A DNA stretch of 64,000 bases from the NCBI GenBank assembly GCA_965219565.1, contig OZ244780.1, positions 1,346,146 to 1,410,145 on the forward strand, in the 5' to 3' direction. This document shows, piece after piece, positions 7,019 to 50,638 of this stretch (positions within the stretch are counted from its first letter, which is position 1; every line of letters starts with the position of its first letter). Made by a program: the position numbers and the translations under genes. The notes beneath the pieces are model-generated. The model did not search any database. It was not told the DNA's origin and saw only the letters and a list, made by a program, of their open reading frames with translations. The DNA is from Dehalococcoidia bacterium. GTDB taxonomy: Bacteria > Chloroflexota > Dehalococcoidia > Lucifugimonadales > JAGWBF01.

Positions 7019-7093
7019 TCCCCAGTAGCTCAGTGGTAGAGCGGGCGGCTGTTAACCGCTAGGTCGTAGGTTCGAATCCTACCTGGGGAGCCA
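7019..7093 (+). tRNA. tRNA-Asn: tRNA-Asn (anticodon GTT), CCA encoded
   Basis: Hand-folded cloverleaf. Acceptor TCCCCAG/CTGGGGA, D-arm GCTCAGTGGTAGAGC, anticodon loop CTGTTAA, T-arm GTAGG-TTCGAAT-CCTAC, discriminator G and CCA at 7091-7093. Confidence 0.9.
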
Positions 7094-31792: not shown

Positions 31793-32183
31793 ATGAGACT
31801 AGCTGCACAGGCGAAGGGCGGCTACTACCCCACTCCCGAGCGGGTGGTGGACCTGATCGCCGACCTTATTCACACCCCCTCCGGCTACTACTACCGGGAG
31901 CGGGAGTCCCTGCGCATCCTCGACCCCTGCTGCGGGGCCGGGGACGCGCTGAAGAGGCTGGTGGAGGGCCTCAGCCGGCCCAACGCCCTGGCCATGGAGA
32001 CCTTCGGCATCGAGCTGCACCAGGACCGGGCGGAGGAGGCGGAGCGGCGGCTCGACCACGTGCTGGCGGCGGACCTGTTCGCCACCTCGATAGCGAACGG
32101 GGCCTTCGGCCTGCTGTACCTGAACCCGCCCTACGACTACGACTCGGAGGACAAGCGGACGGAGCACGCCTTCCTGACGCATA
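31793..32183 (+). CDS. N6-adenine DNA methyltransferase, exon 1
   Basis: Motif I ILDPCCGAGD and motif IV LNPPYDY. The frame runs into intron GTGCG at 32184 and stops 7 codons later if unspliced. Confidence 0.75.
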
Positions 32184-32693
32184 GTGCGCCGCGTAACGCG
32201 GCATAGGATACCTAGCTCAACTAGGAGGAACTCGGAGGGAGTTCCTGGGCCAACCGACCCACCTGGCGGCGAAAGCCAAAGGGGACAACAGCATGTCGGT
32301 AAAGCGGCTACAGCCCCAAAGCGTTGTAAGGCTGGTTCCGCAAGGCCCGCGCGATACGGTGAAAGCTTGATTGCCTGAACCCCAGTTCTCAGTCGGTGTA
32401 TAAGGACACCCGCCGGTAAAACGCTTGTAACCCGGCGCCACCCATTGCACTGGTCGGCAGTGTGGACCAACGCACCTCCGATGGGTGAACGATGGCTAAC
32501 TAGGTCATTCAAGGGAACGAACGGGGCACCTACAGTCGCGCTAGAACGTCCTATGTCAACGGAACGCGGGATTGCCTACGGGGGGAGACCCCTATGGCAA
32601 CGGAGCCCTCGTAGTAGTCCGAGCCGGGGAAAGCCCGGCACATGGCGAAGGAGGGCAGGTGTCAACGACGGAATACACAGAGAGGTATGCAGA

Positions 32694-34466
32694 ATGCAGA
32701 ACGCCGAAACTGTACTGAACGTCATACGCAAACGCGGAGAACGAGGATTGCCGCTGGAGAACATCTATCGGCTGCTTTACAACCGGAACCTTTACCTGCG
32801 GGCCTACGGTCGCATCTACTCAAACCAGGGAGCTACGACCAAGGGCGTCACCGCAGAAACCATGGATGGTATGTCACTGGCGAAGATCGACCGCATCATC
32901 GAAGCCTTGCGCTACGAGCGGTTCCGATGGACGCCAGTACGACGGGTCAACATTCCCAAGCCTAACGGCACGACCCGCGCCTTGGGCATACCGACTGGGC
33001 CGGACAAGCTGCTGCAAGAGGTCATCCGGATGATTCTGGAAGCCTACTACGAGCCGCAGTTTTCGGACCGCTCCCACGGCTTTCGGCCCCACCGGGGATG
33101 CCACACCGCCTTGAGCGAAGTGGTCCACACCTGGACGGGAACCCGCTGGTTTGTCGAGGGCGATATCAAAGGGTGCTTTGACAACATCGACCACGATGTC
33201 CTGTTGTCGGTGCTTGGAGAGAAGCTTCACGACAACCGATTCCTACGTCTGCTCAAGTACCTACTGAAAGCAGGCTACATCGAGGATTGGAAATACGGCC
33301 GCACGCTGAGCGGGACCCCGCAAGGCGGCATCGTCAGCCCCATCCTCGCCAACATCTACCTAGACCGGTTGGACAAGTACGTTGAGACGGTGCTGATTCC
33401 AGCACACACCCGAGGCAAAGCCCGAAGGCGCAGCCCCTCCTACCGCGCGTCGGCCAGACGCGTGGCAGCGGCTCGGCAGACTGGGAACCACGCTCAGGCG
33501 GCGCAACTGTTCACACAGATGCAACAACTTCCGTCAGGCGACCCCCACGACCCCGGATACCGTCGGTTGCGCTACGTCCGCTACGCGGACGATTTCGTCT
33601 TGGGCTTCATCGGGCCAAAGGCCGAAGCCGAGCAGATACGGGAGGCCTTGGAGACATTCCTGCACGAAACACTCAAGCTGGAGTTATCCAGGGAAAAGAC
33701 TCTCATAACCCATGCCACCAGCCAGGCGGCCAAGTTCCTCGGCTATGAACTCGTGAACCAACAGGCCAATGACAAGCATGTCCGCCACGGACAACGCAAC
33801 GCCAACGGTCGCATCGGTCTACGGGTCCCCGCCAAAGTCATCGAACAACACTGCCAAGCCTACATGCGCCACGGCAAACCGGCACACCGCAGCGTCCTTA
33901 TACACGATGAGGATTACTCCATCGTGGACAGGTATCAAGCGGAGTTCCGGGGCGTCGTCCAGTATTACCTACTGGCCCAGAATGTCTCCCATTTCGAGAG
34001 ACTGCACGGAATCATGCGGGAATCGATTGTCAAGACCCTCATCGCCAAGCACAAGACCCCACGCCGGATACTGCTCCGACGCTACAAGAGCGTCGTACAG
34101 ACCGAAGAGGGCGAACGGGCTTGCCTTGAGGCCGTCAAACAACGGGGCGATGGGAAACGCCCACTGGTGGCACGGTTCGGTGGCATACCCCTGAAGCGGA
34201 ACCGGCAGGCAATTCTAATAGACCGACAGCCTGAACCGTACAGGTTTCACCGTAACGAGCTCGTAAAACGGCTTCTAGCGGACGAATGCGAGATGTGCGA
34301 CTCAACGATGGACGTAGAAGTCCATCACATCCGCGCACTTCGCGACCTGAATGTGAAAGGCCAACGGGAAAAGCCCAAGTGGGTACAAATCATGGCGGCG
34401 CGAAAACGCAAGACCCTCGTGGTCTGTCGTACGTGTCACATGGACATCCACCACGGGCGCAAGTAA
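32694..34466 (+). CDS. Group II intron reverse transcriptase/maturase with HNH endonuclease domain
   Basis: The N-terminus LNVIRKRGERGLPLENIYRLLYNRNLYLRAY is typical of intron-encoded proteins. RT motif YVRYADDFVLGF and a C-terminal CEMCDS...EVHHIRAL...CRTCHMDIHHG. Confidence 0.9.
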   Translation: MQNAETVLNVIRKRGERGLPLENIYRLLYNRNLYLRAYGRIYSNQGATTKGVTAETMDGMSLAKIDRIIEALRYERFRWTPVRRVNIPKPNGTTRALGIPTGPDKLLQEVIRMILEAYYEPQFSDRSHGFRPHRGCHTALSEVVHTWTGTRWFVEGDIKGCFDNIDHDVLLSVLGEKLHDNRFLRLLKYLLKAGYIEDWKYGRTLSGTPQGGIVSPILANIYLDRLDKYVETVLIPAHTRGKARRRSPSYRASARRVAAARQTGNHAQAAQLFTQMQQLPSGDPHDPGYRRLRYVRYADDFVLGFIGPKAEAEQIREALETFLHETLKLELSREKTLITHATSQAAKFLGYELVNQQANDKHVRHGQRNANGRIGLRVPAKVIEQHCQAYMRHGKPAHRSVLIHDEDYSIVDRYQAEFRGVVQYYLLAQNVSHFERLHGIMRESIVKTLIAKHKTPRRILLRRYKSVVQTEEGERACLEAVKQRGDGKRPLVARFGGIPLKRNRQAILIDRQPEPYRFHRNELVKRLLADECEMCDSTMDVEVHHIRALRDLNVKGQREKPKWVQIMAARKRKTLVVCRTCHMDIHHGRK

Positions 34467-34553
34467 TCCACGCAAGCACAGTAGGTAGTGTCCAATCCAC
34501 AACAACTGAATACGACTCCAATAACAGCCTCCTCCCCCGCGTGGTACACTTGA

Positions 34554-35006
34554 ATGACAGCCATTGCCGGGGTTTTGGGCCTATGCCCACTGGAGGTAAT
34601 GGGGCAAATGCTACACCGGGTGAAGGTGTATCCCGCCAAACGCCGCTTCCTAGCAACGCTCGGCCTAACCTTGGTTTCGGGCGTAGGCTTCGTACTGGCC
34701 GTCACTGTACTTGAGAGACCAGACGACACTTGGCGTGCCATGGTTACAGGAGTGATCGCGCTAATGGTCGCCCCCTTCCTCGCTGGCTGGCTATCACCCC
34801 ATCCCAGTTACGTAGCGTTCTTCCCCATCAGTCTGTTTGTCGGACTCTCAGTTGAGACGGCCATACACGGCCCTCTGACGATTGATTCTGACAACTTCTG
34901 GTTCATCGTCGCGCTCACCACAATCTATGGTGGCTTGGCGTCAGTAACGTTCTTGGGCGGGTGGCTGACTCATTACGGCCTCTCCCGTCTGGCAGAGCGC
35001 AGGTAA
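34554..35006 (+). CDS. Four-helix membrane protein encoded inside the intron (domain IV, downstream of the IEP)
   Basis: 150-aa ORF with four clear hydrophobic helices. Two short hairpins follow it before domain V. Confidence 0.45.
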   Translation: MTAIAGVLGLCPLEVMGQMLHRVKVYPAKRRFLATLGLTLVSGVGFVLAVTVLERPDDTWRAMVTGVIALMVAPFLAGWLSPHPSYVAFFPISLFVGLSVETAIHGPLTIDSDNFWFIVALTTIYGGLASVTFLGGWLTHYGLSRLAERR

Positions 35007-35097
35007 AGCGGGCCTACCACCCGTAGGCTCACACTGCCAATCACGTGGTGCCCAAGCACCACGCCTAGCTAACGACACTACCCACATCGACACTGGA

Positions 35098-35131
35098 GAG
35101 CCGGATGCGGTGAAAGCCGCACGTCCGGTTC
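35098..35131 (+). ncRNA. Group II intron domain V
   Basis: GAGCCGGATGCGGTGAAAGCCGCACGTCCGGTTC. The 34-nt helix has a GAAA tetraloop and the catalytic AGC triad position. Confidence 0.8.
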
Positions 35132-35194
35132 GGAGGGGGGCCGACGGAAAAGTGCTCCGGTAACACGGGGTAACTCGCCGGCGGCCTACCCTAC

Positions 35195-35841
35195 CCACGC
35201 GCTACCTGGCCGAGGACGGCCTGCTGGTCTTCATCGTGCCACGGCAGCGCCTCGCGGTCTCGGCCCGGTATCTCTCCACCCACTACGGGCGGATGCAGTG
35301 CTGGGCCTTTCCCGACCCGGAGGGGCAGGTTTTCGACCAGGTGGCGCTGTTCGGCTTCCGGAAGACCGATCCCGTTCCCGACGCCACAGCCGAGAGCAGG
35401 GTGCTGGAGTGGGCGGTGGGTGAGCCGGAGCCCCTGCGCTCCCACGCCTACACGGAGTTCACCCCATCGACGACGCCGGTCGGCGACATCCTCTTCACGA
35501 CCCGGACCGTCGATCCGGTCGCTGCGGCCGCCGAGGCGCGGCGGTCGGGGCTGTGGGCCAGCACGGAGATCACCGACACCCTGTGGCCCGCGAGCGACAA
35601 CCGGACCCGCCCGCTGATGCCCCTCAGACGGGGCCACATGGCGATGCTGGTGGCGGCGGGCTTCCTCAACAACCTGGTGCTCGAAGCCGAGGGCAGGCGC
35701 ATCCTGGTCAAGGGCCGCACCTCGAAGGAGATGGTGATGGTCGAGGACGCCCCGGAGAAGGAGGTCCACCGCGAGAAGCTCAACACGACCGTCGTCGCCC
35801 TGGACCTCGACGACGGGCAGATCGAGGACATCGCAGCGTAG
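35195..35841 (+). CDS. N6-adenine DNA methyltransferase, exon 2
   Basis: Continues ...AFLTH-T-TRYLAEDGLLVFIVPRQRL..., the expected post-NPPY region. The frame is consistent with the exon 1 phase (1 + 2 nt). Confidence 0.7.
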
Positions 35842-35957: not shown

Positions 35958-36167
35958 ATGCAGACAGCCATGACGCTCGAATCCTGCTGCCGGTGCGAGC
36001 ACCCCATCGCCCCCGGCGAACCGGCCATGCAGACCGCCTCGGTGGACCTCGACGACTACGGCAGGGCCGTGTCCTCCCCGGTGAAGGCGTACCACCTGAG
36101 CGGCCGGTGCTACGACGAGTACAGGGCCGCCGAAGCCGCCCGCAGGGAGGCCCTGAAAGCAGCATAG
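35958..36167 (+). CDS. Small Cys-containing hypothetical protein
   Basis: 69 aa with an AAGGAGAG RBS. CCRCEHP...GRCYDEY is a possible zinc site. Confidence 0.45.
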   Translation: MQTAMTLESCCRCEHPIAPGEPAMQTASVDLDDYGRAVSSPVKAYHLSGRCYDEYRAAEAARREALKAA

Positions 36168-36348
36168 ACGGCTGGATTCCAAGCCGCACTCACGAGGCCC
36201 GCCAACTGTGGCGGTCTTCGCAGATCCAACCAACCGCCTGGGGACGCTTCCAGGAACCCGCGCTCACAAGCGTCCCCACCGGGGGCGTGGTGCGTCCCGG
36301 GTCCCGGCGTCGTCCTCCGGCCCACCACGGAAAAGGAGGACGACTGAA

Positions 36349-38691
36349 ATGAACCTCGGAGGTTTCATAGACACGTTCAAGGACGCGATAGCCAAGAGGG
36401 TGGTCGAGTCCTACCCGCCGCTCTACCGCCCCTCGGAGAACGGCGGCACGCTCCCCAGGCTGCTCCGCAAGCCCCTGGGGGCGCAGGCCGACGCGATCAG
36501 GGGCGCGGCCCTCTCCCTGAAGGCCCACCGGGGCACCACCGTCGTCGGCGAGATGGGCACCGGCAAGACCTTCATCGGCGCGGCAGCGGCATACATGGCG
36601 GGCTTCGAGAGGATTCTCATCATCTGCCCGCCCCACCTGGTGCCCAAGTGGAAGCGGGAGGTGGAGATGACGGTGGCCGGCGTCCGCGCCGCCATCGTCG
36701 AGTCCATCACCGACCTGGAGCGGCTGCGCCTCTCCGTCGGCTCAGGCCCTCTGTTCGCGGTGATGAGCCGGGAGAAGGCCAAGCTGTCCTACCGCTGGAT
36801 GCCCGCCGTGATACAGCGGTGGGCCGTCTCGAAGGGAAGGCTCCTGCGGGAGGAGGAGACGGGGGAGCCCTTCCGAGTCCCCTGCTGCCCCGACTGCACG
36901 GCGCAGATCGTCGACAAGGACGGCGTGCCCCTGACGTTCGCGGACCTGAACCGCCGCAAACACACCTGCGCCGGCTGCTACGCCCCCCTGTGGCAAGCCG
37001 ACAGGTCCGGCCCGGCCCGCTACCCGCTGGCCGACTACATCAAGCACCGGATGAAGGGCTTCTTCGACCTGCTGATCGGCGACGAAGTCCACGAGTTCAA
37101 GGGGCGAAGCTCTGCCCAGGGCATCGCCGCCGGCATCCTCGCAGACGTGTGCGGCAAGTCCCTCAGCCTGACCGGGACGCTCCTCGGCGGATACTCCTCG
37201 ACCATCTTCCACCTGCTCTACAGGTTCTCGCCGGAGATACGGACGGAGTTCGGGCGCTCCGACGAGGGGCGCTGGATCAAGCGGTACGGCTTCGAGGAGG
37301 TCACCGTCGGCAAACCCGACGACGACGCGGTGGAGGACGGGCGCAACAGCCGCCGCCGCAGCTACCGCAAGGTCACCAGGGAAAGGCCGGGCCTGGTGCC
37401 CTCGGCGTTGTTCCACATCATAGGGAACACCGTCTTCCTCAGACTGGCGGACGTCGCCTCCGGCCTGCCGGACTACGAGGAGAAGATCCTCGTGTCCTCG
37501 ATGGACTCGGAGGAGGACGCGACGGGCTACTCCCAGCGCAGCGCCTACAAGCACGTGTTCGAGACGCTGAAGGAGGAGCTGGCGAAGGCGCTGAAATCCG
37601 GCTCGAAGCGGCTGCTGGCGACGTACCTGCAAACCCTCCTCGCCTACCCCGACGGCTGCACCCGGGGCGAGACGGTCTTCGACCCCCGGACCGGCGACGT
37701 CATCGTGCAGGTGCCGCCCCTGTCCGAGGAGAAGCTCTACCCGAAGGAGAAGGCGCTCATCGACCTGGTGGCCGCCGAGCGGCTGGAGGGACGACGGGTG
37801 CTGGTCTACGTCACCCACACTGGGACCAGGGACATCACCGGGCGGATGGACGACTTCCTCACCCGGCACGGGTTCCGGGTGGCGGTGATGAAGGCCGACG
37901 CGGTGGCCCCGAACCGCAGGGAGAAGTGGGTCGCCGACAAGGTGAAGGAGGGCATCGACGTGCTCATCTGCCACCCCAGGCTGGTGCAGACCGGCCTCGA
38001 CCTCATCGACTTCCCGACAATCGTCTGGGACGAAACTGATTACTCGGTGTACGTCGTCCGGCAGGCGTCGCGCCGGTCGTGGCGCATCGGGCAGACCCGC
38101 CCGGTGAAGGTGGTGTTCATGTCCTACCGCAACACCCTCCAGGCCGACGCCCTGAAGCTGGTGGCGAAGAAGATGCAGAGTTCCCTGGCCGTCGAGGGGG
38201 AGCTGCCGGAGGACGGGCTGGCCGCCTATGGCGACGACGGCGACGACATGATGATGGCCCTGGCCCGCAGGATCGTCAGCGGCGAGGAGGAGGACGAGGC
38301 CGAGACGATGCAGGAGGTGTTCGCCCAGGCACGGAACGCCGAGAGCGAGGCCGAGGAGCTGCTGGTGGACGACGGCTGGAAGGTCGTCGAAGTCGAGCCG
38401 GAGGCCATTGCGGTCAACGGCAACGGGAACGGCAACGGCCACCACGGGTCCGACATCTTCGGGCCGACGGTCGAGCTCGTCCCGGTCAACGGCCACGCCA
38501 ACGGCAACGGAGCCAACGGCCACCACGACGAGGAACCGGAGGCGCAGCAGTCGCTGTTCTCCTGGGCCGAGTTCATGGCCGAGGAGCCGGTCAAGCCCAA
38601 GAGCCGCAAGGCCCGGACTCCCTCCCTGTCCCTCTTCGAGTGGGCGGTGGAACAGGAGCGCGAATCGGAGCCGGTCGGCGCAGGACGCTAG
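36349..38691 (+). CDS. SNF2/DEAD-like superfamily 2 helicase
   Basis: ATG after an AAAAGGAGG RBS. Motifs GEMGTGKT, DEVHEFK and QASRRSWRIGQ. Has an inserted CCPDC...CAGC zinc ribbon and an Asn-Gly/His-rich tail. Confidence 0.8.
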   Translation: MNLGGFIDTFKDAIAKRVVESYPPLYRPSENGGTLPRLLRKPLGAQADAIRGAALSLKAHRGTTVVGEMGTGKTFIGAAAAYMAGFERILIICPPHLVPKWKREVEMTVAGVRAAIVESITDLERLRLSVGSGPLFAVMSREKAKLSYRWMPAVIQRWAVSKGRLLREEETGEPFRVPCCPDCTAQIVDKDGVPLTFADLNRRKHTCAGCYAPLWQADRSGPARYPLADYIKHRMKGFFDLLIGDEVHEFKGRSSAQGIAAGILADVCGKSLSLTGTLLGGYSSTIFHLLYRFSPEIRTEFGRSDEGRWIKRYGFEEVTVGKPDDDAVEDGRNSRRRSYRKVTRERPGLVPSALFHIIGNTVFLRLADVASGLPDYEEKILVSSMDSEEDATGYSQRSAYKHVFETLKEELAKALKSGSKRLLATYLQTLLAYPDGCTRGETVFDPRTGDVIVQVPPLSEEKLYPKEKALIDLVAAERLEGRRVLVYVTHTGTRDITGRMDDFLTRHGFRVAVMKADAVAPNRREKWVADKVKEGIDVLICHPRLVQTGLDLIDFPTIVWDETDYSVYVVRQASRRSWRIGQTRPVKVVFMSYRNTLQADALKLVAKKMQSSLAVEGELPEDGLAAYGDDGDDMMMALARRIVSGEEEDEAETMQEVFAQARNAESEAEELLVDDGWKVVEVEPEAIAVNGNGNGNGHHGSDIFGPTVELVPVNGHANGNGANGHHDEEPEAQQSLFSWAEFMAEEPVKPKSRKARTPSLSLFEWAVEQERESEPVGAGR

Positions 38692-44152: not shown

Positions 44153-47100
44153 TCAGAGTTCTAGCTTCGACATCGGCGACCAATCCGAAGTTCCGGCCTC
44201 GTTGACGGCCCGGACGCGGAAGTAGTACACCGTCCAGTACGTCGGCAGTCCCGTGACTGTGGCTCCGGACCCGCTAATGGAGACGCCCAGGCCTGCGCCG
44301 TCGTTCGGCAGCGTCGTCCACTCGCCATTCCACCACAGCCCTACCTCGTAGCCAGTGGCGGTCTCAACGTCGTTCCAGTCCAGGGAGGCATTGCCTGCGC
44401 CGTCCAGGCTCCCGGTGGGCGCGTCGGGCGAGTCCGGGGCGACTGCCGGTGGCAGAGCGGCTCTGGTCACGGTGACGGTATAGGTCGTGGCGGTGTTGCC
44501 GTCCTCGGCGGTGACCTCGACGGTGATGACGTTTCTGCCCACATCGAGTGGGATTACCCCGTCGGCGTCGGCCACGCCGTCCAGCTTGACCGCGTAGGCC
44601 GCTCCGTCGTCGCTGACCGTGGGCGTTACCGTGGTTTCCGTCACGTCGTTGTCGACGTTGGCGGCATACTCGGTGGTGGCCGGGTCGAAGGCGCCGATGT
44701 CCACGCCGCTCAGCGTCAGCCTGCTCAGGGCGGCGTCAGTGGAGAGCGGCGGCGCGGCGCGAGTGACGGAGACGGTGTAGGTCTTGGTGCCGTTCCCGTC
44801 CTCGGCGGTGACCTCGACGGTGATGACGTTGCCGCCCACGCCGAGGGGGATTACCCCGTCCTCGTCAGCCACGCCGTCGAGCTTGATTACGTAGCTTGCC
44901 CCGCCGTCGTTGGTCGTCGGGGTCACCGTCGTTTCGTCCATATCGCTGGCGACGTTGGCGGTGTACCTGGTCGTGTCTGATGCGAACGCCAGGGTGACAT
45001 CGCTCAGGGTCAGGCCGCTCAGCGTCGCGTCTGTGGAGGCTGGCTCCGGCTGTTGTTGGTCTGGGGCGTTGACCGTGAAGCCGGCGGTGGCCGACGCCAG
45101 CTTCACGTTGCCGGGGGACGATATGCTGACCTCGACGGTGTAGTCGCCGGGCGCGCAGGACGTGGAGATGGTGCCTGTGCGGACCTCCGGGTCCTCGTCC
45201 ACCTTGTACATGTAGCGGTCGTTGCCCATGCCGCCGCCTACGCAGCCGTCGGCGTTCCTCACGTCGGCCCGGAAGATGTAGTCGGTGTCGGAGGTGTCCG
45301 AGTCGGATTCCAGGTTGGCGAAAGACATGGTGACGGTGACCTCGACGCCTTCGTCCACCGGCCCGGACGGAGAGAGAGCAATCGCCACGGCAGGGCCCGA
45401 GACCGTCAGCGCGGCGCGGGTGACAGTCACCTTATAGGTCTTGACCGCGCTGCCGTCCTCGGCGGTCACTTCTACTGTGATGACGTTGGTGCCCACCGCG
45501 AGAGGGATTACCCCGTCCGCGTCAGCCACGCCGTCGAGCTTGATCGCGTAGGTGGCCCCGCCGTCGTTAGTCGTCGGACTAACCGTCGTCTGCCTCACAT
45601 CGCTGGCGACGCTGGCGGTGTACCCGGTAGTGGCCTGGTCGAACGCGCCGAAGTCGATGCCGCTCAGCGCCAGGTTGCGCAGCGTGGCGTCGGCGGAGAG
45701 CGACGGCGCGGCGCGGGTTACGGTTACGGTGTAGGTCCGCGTGGTGTTCCCGTCCTCGGCGGTGACTTTGACGGCGATGGCGTTGCTCCCCACGGCGAGA
45801 GAGACGGTCCCGTCTTCGTCTGCCGCGCCGTCGAGCTTGATTACGTAGCTTGCCCCGCCGTCGTTGGTCGTCGGGGTAACGGTGGTCTGCGTCACGTCGT
45901 TGGCGACGCTGGCGGTGTACCCGGTAGTGGCTGATGCGAACGTGCCGATGTTGACGCCGCTCAGGGTGAGGCCGTTCAGCGTGGCGTCTGAGGAGGCCGG
46001 CTCCGGCGGTTGTTGGTCTGGGGCGTTGACCGTGAAGCCGGCGGTGGCCGACGCCAGCTCCACGTTGTCGGGAGACGAGATGCTCGCCCGGACGGTGTAG
46101 GCGCCCGCCGGGCAGTCTGCGGAGATGGTCCCCGTGCGGACTTCGGGGTCCTCATCCACCTGGTACATGTAGCGGTCTACGCCCAGGCCGTAGCCCCCCG
46201 CACGGTCCTCGCATTGGTCGGCCCCAACCACGTCGGCGCGGAAGATGTAATCGGTGTCGGAAGTGTTGGAATCAGACTCCAGGTTGGAGAAAGTCATGGT
46301 CACGTCGATTGGCGCGCCAACGGGCGCGGTGGGGGGCGACAGCGCAATCACAGCCGCAGGGCCGGACTCGGCCCGCTCCTCCTCTTCCCCACGCTGCCCC
46401 GGCGCCAAGTTTGCGCTCAGCGGATTGGCCTGGCCAATCTCGAAACCGTCGATCCTTTCCCTTCCGTTCTCATCCCGGCCACCGTCCACGAAAGCCGCCG
46501 AATCCACCGACACGGTGAACACTCGGCTGAACGTGCCGGACCGGGACAAGGTCACCCCCTCGCTGGCCAGGCTGCCCGCCGCTATCGTTACCGTGTGCTG
46601 CGACAGCACCCCGCCGTTGGATACCGACAGGGTGATGGTCATGTCCGCCGGCGCGCCTTGGGCCACCCTGACCGCGATTTCGTAGGTGCTCCGGTCCTGC
46701 TTCAGCACCGGCGTCAGCGTGAAAGGCGTACCCGTGTTGCCTATGAACCATACCGTGTTCAGACTGGAAAGGCCCTCGAACAATCCGTCCGGCAGATCCC
46801 TCAGTTTGTTGTCGAACAGAGCCAGCACCCGCAGAGCGCCCAGGCCCTCGAACACATCGCCCGGCAGTGCGTTCAGTTTATTCCCGTAGAGATACAGCGA
46901 TTCCAGACTGGACAATCCCGCGAAAGCCCCGGCTGGCAGCGTGCGCAGGTTGTTGTTTTCCAAGCTCAAGTCTTTCAGCTTGACCAGGCCCGCGAAAGCC
47001 CCGGCTGGCAGCGTGCGCAGGTTGTTGTTTTCCAGACTCAAGTCTTCCAACTTGCCCAATCCGTTGAAGGCGTCCTCCGGCAGCGTCGCCAGAGCGTTGT

Positions 47101-50100
47101 CGTGCAGGCGCAGCTCTTCGAGTTTGCCTAGGCGCTCAAATCCCGGCAGCGTCGTCAGCGCGTTGTCGTGCAGCAGCAGGGCTTCCAGTTCGACCAGGTC
47201 GCCGAGCACCCCGTCCGGCAGCGCGCTCAGGGCTTTGCTCTCATCGGCGTTCTTGTTGTGGTGTAGGTCCAGGCTCTTCAGCTTGGACAGGCCGTCAAAC
47301 ACGCCCTCGGGCAGCGACAGCAGGTGGTTGTTATCCAGAATCAGCCGCTCCAGGCCGGCCGCGTCGGCAAAAGTATCCGCCGGCAGCGCCGTAAACTCGT
47401 TCTCCCCCAAGTGCAGCAGTTTCAGGGCCGGCAGGCGGGTGAACATATCCGTCGGCAGCGCGGTCAGCGAGTTGTGTTCCAGGTGCAGCTTGTTCAGGCT
47501 CGCTAAGCCGTTGAACACGTCGGCGGGCAGCGCGGTCAGGGAGTTGCGTTCCAGGTGCAGCTCTTGGAGGTTCGCCAGGCCCTGGAAATCCCCGGATTTC
47601 AGCCCGGTAATCCCTTTGTTGATCAGCAGCAGGCTGCCGGTGATACCAGCAAGGTCCTCAGCCGTAACCAACTCGCAGTCGCTGACGTTGGGCAGCAGGG
47701 CCAGAATCCCGTCGCGCACCTGCGGCGTGCGCCCGCAGATGCCCGCCAAGTCGGTTACGGTAACGGTGACGTCCAAGGCGCCGGTATTGGTTCCATCGAA
47801 CGCCTGCACCGTTACGCTGTACACGTTGTCAGCATCGGCGTCCGCCGGGGCCTCGTAGTCGGGGGCAGCGGCGAACACCAGTTCCCCGGCGCTGCCGATG
47901 GAGAAGTCGCCGCCGTCGTCGCCGGACACCGACCAGGTTATGGTTGCGTTGTCTTCCCCGCCCGTTGCCGCGTATGCAGCCACCGGCGCAGCGCCGTTCT
48001 CGGCGTAGTCCGCCGCGACGGGACCGGACATGGCAAGCGGTGTTCCGGAGGTCAGCGTCAGGCTGTCCCCGACGCCAATCCGTATGCCATCGTAGCCCTC
48101 GTAATCATCCTCGTCGAACTCAGCTGACTCCACGCTGACGACGACCTGAGCGTGCCCGTTGCCGGCGGGGGTGAGGGTAATCGCATCGCTGGCCGTCTTG
48201 CCGCCCTCAACCTTGATAGCCGCGCCGGACAGGTCGCCGCCCTCGACCGACAGGCCGACGTCCATGTCGAAGGGCGACCCCTCGGCGACCTTGACCGCCA
48301 CCGCGCCGTCTCCCTGCTGTTCCAACTCCGCGGTAAGCGTGAAAGGCGCTCCGGGATTACCGCTCAGGGTCAGTCGCTCCAGGTTGGAGAGGCCCTCGAA
48401 AAGACCTTCGGGAAGCTCACTCAGATTGTTCTCGTCCAAGCGCAGCAATTGCAGGTTGGAGAGGCCGTCGAACACGCCGGCGGGCTGATCGCTCAGATTG
48501 TTGTCATACAAGTACAGCCGTTGCAGGCTGGTGAGGCCGTCGAATACGCCGTTCGGCAGTGATGCCAGCTGGTTGGAGCCCAAGCCCAGCCGTCGCAGGC
48601 TGGTGAGGCCGTCGAACACGTCCTCGGGCAGGGAAGTCAGATCGTTGTTCCACATGTGCAGCCCTTGCAGGCTGGTGAGGCCGTCGAACACGTCCTCGGG
48701 CAGGGAAGTCAGGTCGTTGTTGTCCAGGTGCAGATCTTTCAGGCTGGTGAGGCCGCTGAAGTCTCCGTCCTGCAATGCGGTTATCCCGGCATCAGACAGC
48801 AATAGGTCGCCTGTAATGCCGGCCAGGTCCGAGCTGGTCACCGCCGCGCAGTCGCTGACGTTGGGCAGCAGGGCCAGAATCCCGTCGCGCACCTGCGGCG
48901 TGCGGTCGCAGATGCCGGAGTTACCGGAGACGGACACGACCACGGTGGTTTCGGCCGTCCCGTCAATGCCGTCGTCGGCCGTGACGGTCAGCTCGTACTC
49001 ACCCGGGGCGACCGACGCACCAATGCCGCGCGTGTAACTGATCACTCCGCTGGTCGAGTCAATCCCGAACCGCGAAGGCCAGTCCCCCGCCTTCGCGTAC
49101 GTGATCGAATCGTTATCCGCGTCGGCCGCGACGACCGTGATGAGATTCGGCACTTCACTCGAATCGCTCTCCATCTCGACCGCGTAAAGCGCCGCGAACT
49201 GCGGCGGCGTGCCGGGAAGATCATAGGCGACGTTGAAGAGTCCCTGCCTGACCCAGATTATGCTGCCGTCGGACCACATGCCGCTTGTAATCATTGTGAG
49301 GAGGTCGTATGGGGATGGAGGGGGAGGAGCTCGTACAATGTCGAAATCGCGGCTCGGCACCCGCGCTTTGGTCTGGAGGTCGAAGGCGTACACTATGCGG
49401 CGTTTCGCTCCTTCGACCCACATCGTCTTTCCGTTGGACCAAAGTCCGGCTGGTGAGCCGACCGAGTACGGTAGGAATGGGGGTTTTCCCCTCGTCCCGG
49501 GAACCGAGAACTCCTCGCTCCGATCTCTCATTCCCGTGGCCATGTTGTACGCGTATACGCGCAAATGATGCCCGGTTACCCACATCGTTTCGCCGTCGGA
49601 CCAGATGCCCCCAGAGGGGTGATCGCGACCGGCTGAGATGTGGTCGTAGTGCGTGAGCCTAATCGTCTTGTCGCTTAGAAGCTTCCAGCTCGATCCGGTC
49701 CGTTGGAAGGCATATAAATAGTGCCTGTTTCCATGACCGCTATCATGTTTTTCGACTGTCAGCCATAGGATTCCATTGCCGTACCAGAGTTCCGGGTTCG
49801 CAAAAGACCCGTATTCGCATATCTTGAAAGTCGAGGGCACTCCATTGCAGGGGCCGATGTTGAAGCCCGCTCCCCTGTCCACCTCGCCCGTCTCCCGGTC
49901 GTAGATCGATACGACCACCCTGGCCAACCTGGCGAGCTCCTCCTCCACCCTTATTGACGCAATCCAGAACCTGTCGGCGCTTCCGTTCGCCGACGTGAAA
50001 CCAGTGGCAAGCGCTTCATTCGTATAGGGCGTTATGAAAGTATGCTCGCGGGTCACCGGGTCTTGCGCCCACGTCTCCGGCGCTGGCGCTGCCGGACGTT

Positions 50101-50638
50101 CAGGAACAACGATAGTGATCAGATACCTGATGATTGTGACGCCATCCGGCGCCGTGACCGTAACCGTCACATCGTTCGAGCCGGTTTGCACGTCGAAGTC
50201 CACCGGACTGGCGCATCCCTTTGAAGAATGGAGCGATTGGTCGAAGGTGATACCAGGAAGGCTGTCCTCACGGTCGATGGCGAGGCTCGCTTGGGGCTGC
50301 GTAGGCCAGGCGCAGATGCTGCTTGACGTGAGATACGAGTCAAGCTCGACTGTCGCCTCATTGTCCTTGTCGAACGCAATGTTCCCGGAAGCTTCTTCGC
50401 CGGGGCCGGGATTGATGATGCTGAAGCCGTCGCCGCCGATGTGGACCTTGTGCAGCGTGGCGTCGTTGGAGGCCGTAGGCGTGGACGTGGGACTGGCGGA
50501 GTTGGTCGGAGCGGGCGTCTGGGCGAGTGCGACGCCGCTCGGAGAGACGGTAGTGAGCGCCAGCGCGATGACCGCCAGCAGAGCCAGCGCGGCGACGGGC
50601 CGGAGAATCGGACGCAGGTTTGGCAATTGGAATGTCAT
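44153..50638 (-). CDS. Giant secreted surface protein with LRR blocks, cadherin-like domains, W-rich propeller-like repeats and a C-terminal FN3
   Basis: 2161 aa with a signal peptide. WSDG.TMWV-type repeats, two LRR blocks (LxxLxLxxNxLxxLPxxxFxGL), at least 6 DATLxxLxLSG cadherin-like beta-sandwich modules and a terminal FN3-like domain. Confidence 0.85.
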   Translation of the reverse strand: MTFQLPNLRPILRPVAALALLAVIALALTTVSPSGVALAQTPAPTNSASPTSTPTASNDATLHKVHIGGDGFSIINPGPGEEASGNIAFDKDNEATVELDSYLTSSSICAWPTQPQASLAIDREDSLPGITFDQSLHSSKGCASPVDFDVQTGSNDVTVTVTAPDGVTIIRYLITIVVPERPAAPAPETWAQDPVTREHTFITPYTNEALATGFTSANGSADRFWIASIRVEEELARLARVVVSIYDRETGEVDRGAGFNIGPCNGVPSTFKICEYGSFANPELWYGNGILWLTVEKHDSGHGNRHYLYAFQRTGSSWKLLSDKTIRLTHYDHISAGRDHPSGGIWSDGETMWVTGHHLRVYAYNMATGMRDRSEEFSVPGTRGKPPFLPYSVGSPAGLWSNGKTMWVEGAKRRIVYAFDLQTKARVPSRDFDIVRAPPPPSPYDLLTMITSGMWSDGSIIWVRQGLFNVAYDLPGTPPQFAALYAVEMESDSSEVPNLITVVAADADNDSITYAKAGDWPSRFGIDSTSGVISYTRGIGASVAPGEYELTVTADDGIDGTAETTVVVSVSGNSGICDRTPQVRDGILALLPNVSDCAAVTSSDLAGITGDLLLSDAGITALQDGDFSGLTSLKDLHLDNNDLTSLPEDVFDGLTSLQGLHMWNNDLTSLPEDVFDGLTSLRRLGLGSNQLASLPNGVFDGLTSLQRLYLYDNNLSDQPAGVFDGLSNLQLLRLDENNLSELPEGLFEGLSNLERLTLSGNPGAPFTLTAELEQQGDGAVAVKVAEGSPFDMDVGLSVEGGDLSGAAIKVEGGKTASDAITLTPAGNGHAQVVVSVESAEFDEDDYEGYDGIRIGVGDSLTLTSGTPLAMSGPVAADYAENGAAPVAAYAATGGEDNATITWSVSGDDGGDFSIGSAGELVFAAAPDYEAPADADADNVYSVTVQAFDGTNTGALDVTVTVTDLAGICGRTPQVRDGILALLPNVSDCELVTAEDLAGITGSLLLINKGITGLKSGDFQGLANLQELHLERNSLTALPADVFNGLASLNKLHLEHNSLTALPTDMFTRLPALKLLHLGENEFTALPADTFADAAGLERLILDNNHLLSLPEGVFDGLSKLKSLDLHHNKNADESKALSALPDGVLGDLVELEALLLHDNALTTLPGFERLGKLEELRLHDNALATLPEDAFNGLGKLEDLSLENNNLRTLPAGAFAGLVKLKDLSLENNNLRTLPAGAFAGLSSLESLYLYGNKLNALPGDVFEGLGALRVLALFDNKLRDLPDGLFEGLSSLNTVWFIGNTGTPFTLTPVLKQDRSTYEIAVRVAQGAPADMTITLSVSNGGVLSQHTVTIAAGSLASEGVTLSRSGTFSRVFTVSVDSAAFVDGGRDENGRERIDGFEIGQANPLSANLAPGQRGEEEERAESGPAAVIALSPPTAPVGAPIDVTMTFSNLESDSNTSDTDYIFRADVVGADQCEDRAGGYGLGVDRYMYQVDEDPEVRTGTISADCPAGAYTVRASISSPDNVELASATAGFTVNAPDQQPPEPASSDATLNGLTLSGVNIGTFASATTGYTASVANDVTQTTVTPTTNDGGASYVIKLDGAADEDGTVSLAVGSNAIAVKVTAEDGNTTRTYTVTVTRAAPSLSADATLRNLALSGIDFGAFDQATTGYTASVASDVRQTTVSPTTNDGGATYAIKLDGVADADGVIPLAVGTNVITVEVTAEDGSAVKTYKVTVTRAALTVSGPAVAIALSPSGPVDEGVEVTVTMSFANLESDSDTSDTDYIFRADVRNADGCVGGGMGNDRYMYKVDEDPEVRTGTISTSCAPGDYTVEVSISSPGNVKLASATAGFTVNAPDQQQPEPASTDATLSGLTLSDVTLAFASDTTRYTANVASDMDETTVTPTTNDGGASYVIKLDGVADEDGVIPLGVGGNVITVEVTAEDGNGTKTYTVSVTRAAPPLSTDAALSRLTLSGVDIGAFDPATTEYAANVDNDVTETTVTPTVSDDGAAYAVKLDGVADADGVIPLDVGRNVITVEVTAEDGNTATTYTVTVTRAALPPAVAPDSPDAPTGSLDGAGNASLDWNDVETATGYEVGLWWNGEWTTLPNDGAGLGVSISGSGATVTGLPTYWTVYYFRVRAVNEAGTSDWSPMSKLEL

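What the first reader, a model, noticed from the sequence alone, without database searches (positions are those of the whole stretch)
31793..35841. Group II intron interrupting the coding sequence of the ICE methyltransferase
The N6-adenine methyltransferase frame (DPCCGAG ... NPPY) breaks 19 codons after NPPY, exactly at a GTGCG intron 5' end (32184). A textbook domain V (35098-35131) and a domain VI ending in ...CTAC define the 3' end at 35194. Joining 32183 to 35195 restores an uninterrupted frame (FLTH-T-TRYLAEDGLLVFIVPRQRL). Bacterial group II introns mostly sit outside genes or behind terminators, so an intron inside a conserved enzyme gene is uncommon. It makes methylase production depend on splicing, a possible timing switch after transfer.
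Basis: partly seen in the sequence, partly recalled or inferred. Interest (0 to 1): 0.6.

Follow-up and report, generated by a model that had tools for sequence, protein, structure and literature searches.

The report
Mobile group II intron splitting an ICE methyltransferase gene
A 3-kb self-splicing retroelement (a group II intron related to the lactococcal Ll.LtrB intron) sits precisely inside the coding sequence of a DNA methyltransferase gene on an integrated conjugative element of a Dehalococcoidia bacterium; this is a known kind of arrangement, but the intron also carries an extra membrane-protein gene.

Summary
Confirmed. Window 32184-35194 (+) is a complete 3,011-nt group II intron. 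It has a GUGCG 5' end, an Rfam domain V/VI hit (67.5 bits), a bulged branch A at 35188 and an intact LtrA-like RT-maturase-HNH protein.

The ends are fixed to the base in two ways. The same genome holds a second, 100% identical copy in a paralogous methyltransferase gene, whose flanks are only 84-89% identical. An uninterrupted allele in another genome carries the exact 29-nt ligated junction.

Joining the exons gives a 345-aa DUF6094 methyltransferase. It aligns without gaps to many uninterrupted 345-aa homologs (up to 96% identity).

Covariation across 43 intron/site combinations locates EBS1, delta and EBS2. This copy pairs at -2 to -6 but is mismatched at -1 and +1, so splicing here may be inefficient. 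No RNA evidence for splicing could be obtained.

The intron belongs to a Dehalococcoidia family that mostly targets the methyltransferase-helicase genes of this element.

Domain IV also holds a stem-closed 624-nt insert with a conserved 132-aa four-helix membrane-protein ORF. Relatives carry other cargo in the same slot.

The kind is known (Ll.LtrB in a relaxase gene): a new member. The "timing switch" idea is untested.

The parts
31793..32183 (+). Methyltransferase exon 1: 130 codons plus the first base of codon 131. Contains the DPCCGAG and NPPY motifs.
   Evidence: Pfam PF19587 DUF6094 E=5e-16 and N6_Mtase. Aligns to residues 1-130 of 345-aa homologs.
32172..32183 (+). IBS2 (32172-32177, TCCTGA) and IBS1 (32178-32183, CGCATA).
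   Evidence: Pairing with EBS2 at 5 of 6 positions. Pairing with EBS1 at -2 to -6 (two G-U pairs), with -1 mismatched.
32184..35194 (+). Complete group II intron, 3,011 nt.
   Evidence: 100% identical second copy with different flanks. Identical copy in another genome, L003. Empty-site allele.
32184..32658 (+). Ribozyme domains I-III: 5' GUGCG, DII at about 32572-32600, DIII at about 32605-32656.
   Evidence: RNAalifold on 20 relatives gives 140 pairs, 50 of them with compensatory changes. Single-sequence fold z=-3.9.
32401..32407 (+). EBS2 (UAAGGAC) in a terminal loop of domain I.
   Evidence: Covaries with exon positions -13 to -7 across the family: own exons pair at a mean of 5.2 of 6, others at 3.9.
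32458..32464 (+). delta (C32458) plus EBS1 (AGUGUG) in a terminal loop of domain I.
   Evidence: 38 of 43 distinct intron/site combinations pair at 6-7 of 7 positions with their own exons, against a mean of 4.8 for non-cognate exons.
32694..34466 (+). Intron-encoded protein, 590 aa: RT, maturase (X) and HNH endonuclease.
   Evidence: Pfam RVT_1 1.7e-31, Intron_maturas2 7e-12, AI2M-like HNH 2.5e-13. LtrA (5g2x) E=7e-119 over the full length. YADD present.
34484..35082 (+). Cargo hairpin in domain IV. Arms GGUAGUGUC (34484-34492) and GACACUACC (35074-35082) enclose the insert.
   Evidence: The arms are exact reverse complements. The same arms flank unrelated inserts in relatives, with compensatory variants in L064 and L012.
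34608..35006 (+). Cargo ORF: 132-aa predicted four-helix membrane protein. GGAGG at 34592-34596.
   Evidence: 17 homologs at 64-74% identity align essentially gap-free. An ortholog sits in a diverged intron, L090, where a stop lies directly before the ATG; dN/dS is 0.68. No Pfam family.
35098..35131 (+). Domain V: 34 nt, AGC triad, 2-nt bulge, GAAA loop.
   Evidence: Rfam RF00029. Fold z=-5.2.
35134..35192 (+). Domain VI, with a bulged A at 35188, the seventh base from the 3' end.
   Evidence: MFE and centroid structure.
35195..35841 (+). Methyltransferase exon 2: the last two bases of codon 131, 214 codons and the stop.
   Evidence: Pfam PF19587 profile 253-313. More than 1,000 homologs at E<=1e-10, mostly 345 aa.

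Best explanation
Window 32184-35194 is a mobile group II intron of the LtrA-like (mitochondrial-like, IIA-type) class. It lies in the sense orientation inside codon 131 of a 345-codon DUF6094 N6-adenine DNA methyltransferase gene on an integrated conjugative element of a Dehalococcoidia genome.

Shown: the exact ends; the restored frame; conserved ribozyme domains with covariation; an intact RT-maturase-endonuclease gene; three 100% identical copies in three different methyltransferase alleles; and an uninterrupted allele with the exact junction.

Inferred: the intron arrived recently by retrohoming, that is, reverse splicing of an intron RNA-protein particle into the DNA site followed by reverse transcription. 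The methyltransferase can therefore only be made after the intron splices out of the transcript.

This copy occupies a second-best site. Exon positions -1 and +1 do not pair with EBS1 and delta, whereas the sister copies at ...CCCACT|G do pair. Splicing here is likely but possibly inefficient, which would lower methyltransferase output.

Domain IV also carries a stem-closed passenger gene for a small membrane protein of unknown function.
For: - Rfam domain V/VI hit at 67.5 bits.
- GUGCG 5' end and bulged branch A at 35188.
- Intron-encoded protein with RVT_1, maturase and HNH domains; LtrA E=7e-119 over the full length.
- Second genomic copy 100% identical over exactly 3,011 nt. Its flanks are paralogous at 84-89% identity and differ at -1 and +1.
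- A third identical copy in another genome, in a methyltransferase allele of 73-76% identity.
- Joined exons give 345 aa, gap-free against uninterrupted homologs up to 96% identical.
- Exact 29-nt junction present uninterrupted in G171; the backwards control gave no hits.
- 50 of 140 predicted DI-DIII pairs show compensatory change.
- EBS1, delta and EBS2 covary with the exons across 43 combinations.
- Conjugative-element genes nearby.
Against: - No direct evidence of splicing. Four metatranscriptome runs gave no exon-exon joint and almost no exon cover.
- At this copy delta-delta' is C-C and position -1 is A-A, so only 5 of 7 positions pair, among the weakest of 43 combinations.
- Because the copies are identical and therefore recent, intact exons do not prove that splicing keeps the gene functional.
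- The Rfam D1-D4 models gave no hit even at E<=1, so the class rests on the protein and on the delta-delta' pattern.
Confidence: 0.85

Rival explanations
1. The insertion is in effect a knock-out. At this non-cognate site the intron splices poorly or not at all, so this methyltransferase copy is silent and on its way to becoming a pseudogene.
For: Mismatches at -1 and +1, the two positions that flank both splice sites, whereas the sister copies pair there. Both methyltransferase genes of the genome are interrupted. No spliced RNA was seen (which had little power).
Against: Five contiguous EBS1-IBS1 pairs and 5 of 6 EBS2-IBS2 pairs remain. The intron got in by reverse splicing at this very site, which uses the same pairings. 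The maturase is intact. The exons carry no stop or frameshift.
Confidence: 0.25
2. The intron reached this allele by homologous recombination or gene conversion between the two conjugative elements of the genome, not by retrohoming.
For: Two paralogous methyltransferase-helicase modules with 79-89% identity coexist in one chromosome. The pairing at this site is sub-optimal for retrohoming.
Against: Identity falls from 100% to paralog level exactly at the first base outside the intron on both sides. There is no co-converted exon tract. The same intron is also identical in a third, more distant allele in another genome.
Confidence: 0.08
3. The element has co-opted the intron as a regulator. Splicing would gate or delay methyltransferase production after transfer.
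For: There is a precedent. Splicing of Ll.LtrB controls relaxase supply and conjugation, and the intron down-regulates its host gene (PMC1874635, PMC6003770, PMC7293003).
Against: More than 1,000 homologs were found, mostly of uninterrupted 345-aa length, against four alleles interrupted at this site. The copies are 100% identical, so they are recent. The family inserts at many other sites of the same element. This pattern fits a selfish spread. Nothing was tested about timing.
Confidence: 0.1

Closest known systems
Ll.LtrB intron and its protein LtrA (Lactococcus lactis, in the relaxase gene ltrB of pRS01 and the sex factor)
   Same: The intron protein matches LtrA over its full length (E=7e-119) with RT, X and HNH domains. 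Exon recognition uses EBS1, EBS2 and a delta base next to EBS1. The intron lies in the sense strand of a conjugative-element gene, so the host protein depends on splicing (PMC1874635, PMC6003770).
   Different: The host gene is a DUF6094 methyltransferase, not a relaxase. The host phylum is Chloroflexota (Dehalococcoidia MAGs). Domain IV holds a second gene behind the intron protein. Splicing and mobility are untested here.
Engineered targetrons carrying cargo in the DIVb loop
   Same: The extra gene lies in domain IV downstream of the RT gene, closed off by a stem. The review PMC3898094 reports this as the place where cargo disturbs mobility least.
   Different: Here the cargo is natural and inherited through divergence (ortholog in L090). 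It sits in one of many alternative cargo-bearing relatives. Function and expression are unknown.
Group II intron in orf14 of the conjugative transposon Tn5397 of Clostridioides difficile (from my own knowledge, not checked here)
   Same: A group II intron inside a conserved gene of an integrated conjugative element.
   Different: A different host gene and phylum. No sequence comparison was made here.

Membership tests
Group II intron (Rfam RF00029) | Domain V/VI match above the curated threshold | tested here: met
   67.5 bits against a cut-off of 40, at 35096-35194. Fold z=-5.2.
Group II intron | 5' GUGYG and a bulged branch A 7-8 nt from the 3' end in domain VI | tested here: met
   GTGCG at 32184. 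Unpaired A at 35188.
Group II intron | Conserved DI-DIII secondary structure supported by covariation | tested here: met
   140 consensus pairs, 50 with changes on both sides, in 20 relatives.
Group II intron | RT-maturase ORF in domain IV | tested here: met
   RVT_1, Intron_maturas2 and HNH. LtrA E=7e-119.
Group II intron | EBS1-IBS1 and EBS2-IBS2 pairing with the 5' exon | tested here: met
   Family-wide covariation. At this copy, 5 of 6 positions pair for EBS1 (-1 mismatched) and 5 of 6 for EBS2.
IIA / mitochondrial-like class | A delta base next to EBS1 pairs with +1 of the 3' exon | tested here: inconclusive
   It pairs in most relatives, including the sister copies (C-G), and is counted within the 7-position score. 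At this copy it is C-C.
IIA / mitochondrial-like class | Match to a curated D1-D4 RNA model | tested here: not met
   No Rfam hit at E<=1 on 32100-32800. The models cover only some lineages, so this weighs little.
Mobile intron (retrohoming) | Identical copies at homologous sites with unrelated or diverged flanks, plus an empty site with no duplication | tested here: met
Functional intron | Ligated exons or lariat RNA in cells | not testable with these tools
   Only Logan contigs of four metatranscriptomes were available, and they showed no exon cover.
DUF6094 N6-adenine methyltransferase (PF19587) | Profile match in both exons, contiguous in the profile; motifs DPCCGAG and NPPY | tested here: met
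   Exon 1 matches profile 128-228 and exon 2 matches 253-313. The joined protein is 345 aa and up to 96% identical to homologs.
Integrative conjugative element | Recombinase at a tRNA, relaxase, coupling protein, mating-pore proteins | tested here: met
   tRNA at 7019-7090. Serine recombinase, Replic_Relax, TrwB-like and TrbL/VirB6 proteins. The limits of the element were not mapped.

The most novel reading that the evidence does not exclude
This intron is one member of a Dehalococcoidia lineage of LtrA-like introns with two special features. First, the lineage has radiated by retargeting EBS1 and EBS2 onto many sites of one conjugative-element module: the methyltransferase, and the helicase at its Walker A and DExH motifs and elsewhere. 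Second, it has evolved a stem-closed slot in domain IV that carries interchangeable passenger genes, namely small membrane proteins and lipoproteins that evolve fast. On this reading, natural group II introns act as gene-cassette vehicles that ride on conjugative elements.
Probability: 0.45. Interest if true: 0.7.

Novelty: new member of a known kind. Interest (0 to 1): 0.4.

Why it matters
On its own it is a well-documented example of a known arrangement, a mobile intron inside a conjugation-associated gene, now in an uncultured Chloroflexota lineage. It is useful for correct annotation: the methyltransferase is one 345-aa gene, not two fragments.

The family view is more interesting. Dozens of relatives sit in the methyltransferase and helicase genes of the same element. 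About half carry different extra genes in one stem-closed position of domain IV. If those passengers are expressed, this would be a natural counterpart of engineered cargo-carrying targetrons, and a new route by which small genes spread.

Tried and rejected
- RNA evidence. Four metatranscriptome runs (Logan contigs) were laid on 31793-35841. They covered DI-DIII and DV of related introns, but not the exons and not 34493-35032. No 32183/35195 joint was seen. This has no power for or against splicing.
- Two scans of metagenome contigs with the cargo protein and with its alignment found nothing.
- Rfam D1-D4 models gave no hit.
- The cargo protein has no Pfam family. The protein atlas gave only unnamed clusters below 0.9.
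- Literature searches found no paper on group II introns in Dehalococcoidia or sponge symbionts, and none on natural extra ORFs in bacterial group II introns. The library is incomplete, so this does not show novelty.
- Rejected: that the two methyltransferase ORFs are separate genes. The profile is contiguous and homologs are single 345-aa proteins.
- Rejected: that the second copy is an assembly duplicate. Its flanks are a different paralog.
Full report
**The observation.** The sequence reads ...CTG ACG CAT A|GTGCGCCGCG... at 32183/32184 and ...GGCCTACCCTAC|CCACGCGCTACC... at 35194/35195. Rfam's group II intron model (domains V-VI) matches 35096-35194 at 67.5 bits, against a gathering score of 40. 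Folded alone, 35091-35194 forms the 34-nt domain V helix (35098-35131: AGC triad, 2-nt bulge, GAAA loop). It also forms a domain VI helix with a single unpaired A at 35188, seven bases from the end (z=-5.2). The only slip is the count after NPPY: 16 full codons follow it, and codon 131 is the split one.

**Boundaries.**
- The window's own genome is one 3.18-Mb contig. It holds a second copy that is 100% identical over exactly 3,011 nt, on the other strand about 780 kb away.
- The flanks of the second copy are a paralogous methyltransferase gene. Identity there is 89% upstream and 84% downstream, and jumps to 100% at GTGCG and ...CCTAC.
- The last exon base (A versus T) and the first exon-2 base (C versus G) differ between the two copies.
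- A third identical copy lies in another Dehalococcoidia genome (L003), in an allele only 73-76% identical.
- The predicted ligated junction, TTCCTGACGCATACCACGCGCTACCTGGC, occurs with no mismatch and uninterrupted in a further genome (G171). The reversed control pattern had no hits.
- So the insertion is precise, with no duplication or loss.

**Host gene.**
- Exon 1 and exon 2 match consecutive parts of Pfam DUF6094, an uncharacterised methyltransferase family (profile 128-228 and 253-313). Exon 1 also matches N6_Mtase.
- Exon 2 alone finds more than 1,000 homologs, most of them 345 aa long.
- The joined exons give 345 aa. They align without a gap at the junction to uninterrupted proteins up to 96% identical, which carry T or C at the junction residue.
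- The genome has exactly two such genes. Both are interrupted by the identical intron. Two uninterrupted SNF2-like helicase genes lie just downstream of them.
- Nearby genes support an integrated conjugative element. They include a serine recombinase next to tRNA 7019-7090, a Replic_Relax protein, a TrwB-like coupling protein, TrbL/VirB6, Rad52 and RadC.

**Anatomy and class.**
- The 590-aa ORF at 32694-34466 has RVT_1, the type II intron maturase domain and an AI2M-like HNH endonuclease.
- Its best solved relative is LtrA of Ll.LtrB, over the full length (E=7e-119). Other intron RTs match only in the RT part.
- An RNAalifold consensus of the first ~477 nt from 20 relatives has 140 pairs, 50 of them with compensatory changes. 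It shows two variable terminal loops in domain I, followed by DII and DIII.
- The Rfam D1-D4 models gave nothing. The IIA-like assignment therefore rests on the protein and on the exon-binding pattern.

**Exon recognition.**
- 78 related loci, all from Dehalococcoidia or SAR202 MAGs, provided many different insertion sites.
- The 7-mer in the second variable loop (delta plus EBS1; window C32458 plus AGUGUG 32459-32464) pairs at 6-7 of 7 positions with its own exon (-6..-1, +1) in 38 of 43 distinct intron/site combinations.
- Non-cognate exons average 4.8 even when the best register is allowed, and reach 7 of 7 in 2% of cases.
- The first variable loop (EBS2; window 32401-32407) pairs at a mean of 5.2 of 6 with its own exon, against 3.9 for others.
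- The sister copies at ...CCCACT|G pair at -1 to -4, -6 and +1.
- The window copy at ...CGCATA|C pairs at -2 to -6 (two G-U pairs) but is mismatched at -1 (A-A) and +1 (C-C).
- This is a second-best site, and it is the main reason for caution about splicing efficiency here.

**Family behaviour.** Of 69 family members with both flanks available, the sites are as follows:

| Site | Members |
|---|---|
| Helicase Walker A motif (GTGKTF\|) | 23 |
| Other helicase sites (three with only the downstream flank aligning) | 15 |
| This methyltransferase site | 3, plus the second genomic copy |
| Methyltransferase site at NPPYD\| | 1 in this tally (L076); L071, lacking its 3' flank, sits there too |
| Other ORF-like contexts | 27 |

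Nearly all junctions restore an open frame. Insertion inside a conserved gene is therefore the rule for this lineage, not an oddity.

**The passenger.**
- Most basic relatives have only 15-23 nt between the stop of the intron protein and the domain V flank. The window intron has 624 nt there.
- The insert lies inside a hairpin whose arms, GGUAGUGUC (34484-34492) and GACACUACC (35074-35082), are exact complements.
- The same arms flank unrelated inserts of 330-1,080 nt in about half of the relatives. L064 and L012 have compensatory variants.
- The ORF's true start is ATG 34608, giving 132 aa with four hydrophobic helices and GGAGG 11 nt upstream.
- 17 homologs at 64-74% identity align essentially gap-free.
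- A diverged intron at the helicase Walker A site (L090; intron protein 76% identical) carries the orthologous insert. It is 83% identical in nucleotides and 72% in protein, and has a stop directly before the ATG.
- dN/dS is 0.68 for the passenger, against 0.31 for the intron protein in the same pair.
- Distant homologs (31-50% identity) are free-standing chromosomal genes, one of them in this genome.
- Other introns carry lipoprotein-like ORFs (lipobox L-x-x-C), a DUF3224 protein and a DUF4377 protein. The 13-member lipoprotein group has dN/dS of about 0.9 although its frames stay open.
- The function is unknown.

**Mechanism and rivals.**
- Three identical copies in three diverged alleles imply recent retrohoming. 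By established group II intron biology, that requires an excised intron RNA-protein particle, so the ribozyme and protein were active very recently.
- The intron is in the sense strand. The methyltransferase can be made only from spliced RNA.
- Whether this copy splices well is open. RNA contigs from four sponge-associated metatranscriptomes covered related introns but not these exons.
- The main rival is that the insertion is effectively a knock-out (0.25). Arrival by gene conversion (0.08) is disfavoured by the sharp identity breaks. An adaptive timing switch (0.1) has a precedent in Ll.LtrB (PMC1874635, PMC6003770, PMC7293003), but nothing here supports it beyond analogy.

**Verdict.** This is a real, complete and recently mobile group II intron: a new member of the LtrA-like kind in a new host lineage and a new host gene. 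It is ordinary in kind and well supported, hence a moderate score. The family-wide cargo slot and the specialisation on one conjugative-element module are the parts worth following up.

Noticed in passing
window 34467-35090: A 624-nt insert in domain IV with a 132-aa four-helix membrane-protein ORF, enclosed by a 9-bp stem (34484-34492 / 35074-35082). An ortholog is kept in a diverged intron (L090:1363-1984).
   Followed up: yes
L004, L005, L009-L013, L017-L021, L025-L029, L046-L051, L055-L066, L074, L077-L080 (between the intron-protein stop and domain V): About half of the related introns carry other, mutually unrelated inserts of 330-1,080 nt in the same stem-closed slot. Many encode lipoprotein-like or single-helix proteins. 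One encodes DUF3224 and one DUF4377. The 13-member lipoprotein group has dN/dS near 0.9.
   Followed up: partly
L014:1880-7498, L015:2234-7561+, L016, L079: Head-to-tail tandem arrays of two or three introns with no exon base between them (...CCTAC|GTGCG...), at the helicase Walker A site.
   Followed up: no
L014, L015, L022, L025, L030, L031, L033, L037, L039, L041, L042, L053, L058, L065, L068 (intron position about 375; window equivalent about 32558): A second variable position. Relatives carry 250-620 extra nt between domain I and domain II. An RNA contig in run X21 also shows inserted sequence at 32557/32558.
   Followed up: no
window 32658 to 35094 (joints in runs X19, X20, X22): Metatranscriptome contigs join about 32658 directly to about 35094. 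This suggests ORF-less (domain IV-deleted) relatives of this intron in sponge-associated communities.
   Followed up: no
G000:C1:1647368-1647673 (L089): A free-standing 148-aa paralog (40% identity) of the intron's passenger protein elsewhere in the same chromosome, with no intron sequence within 1.5 kb. It may represent the kind of host gene that was captured.
   Followed up: partly
window 32688-32698: A small hairpin (UGCA-GAA-UGCA) holds the start codon of the intron protein. Relatives show CUCA...UGAG at the same place. It is reminiscent of the DIVa protein-binding site of Ll.LtrB.
   Followed up: no
window 44153-50638 (-): A very long ORF of 2,161 aa, with coding-like GC3, inside or next to the conjugative element. 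It was not examined.
   Followed up: no
window 35958-36167 and 36208-38691: A 69-aa Cys-rich ORF and an 827-aa SNF2-like helicase (ResIII and Helicase_C) directly downstream of the methyltransferase. In relatives the helicase gene is the most frequent target of this intron family, but here it is uninterrupted.
   Followed up: partly
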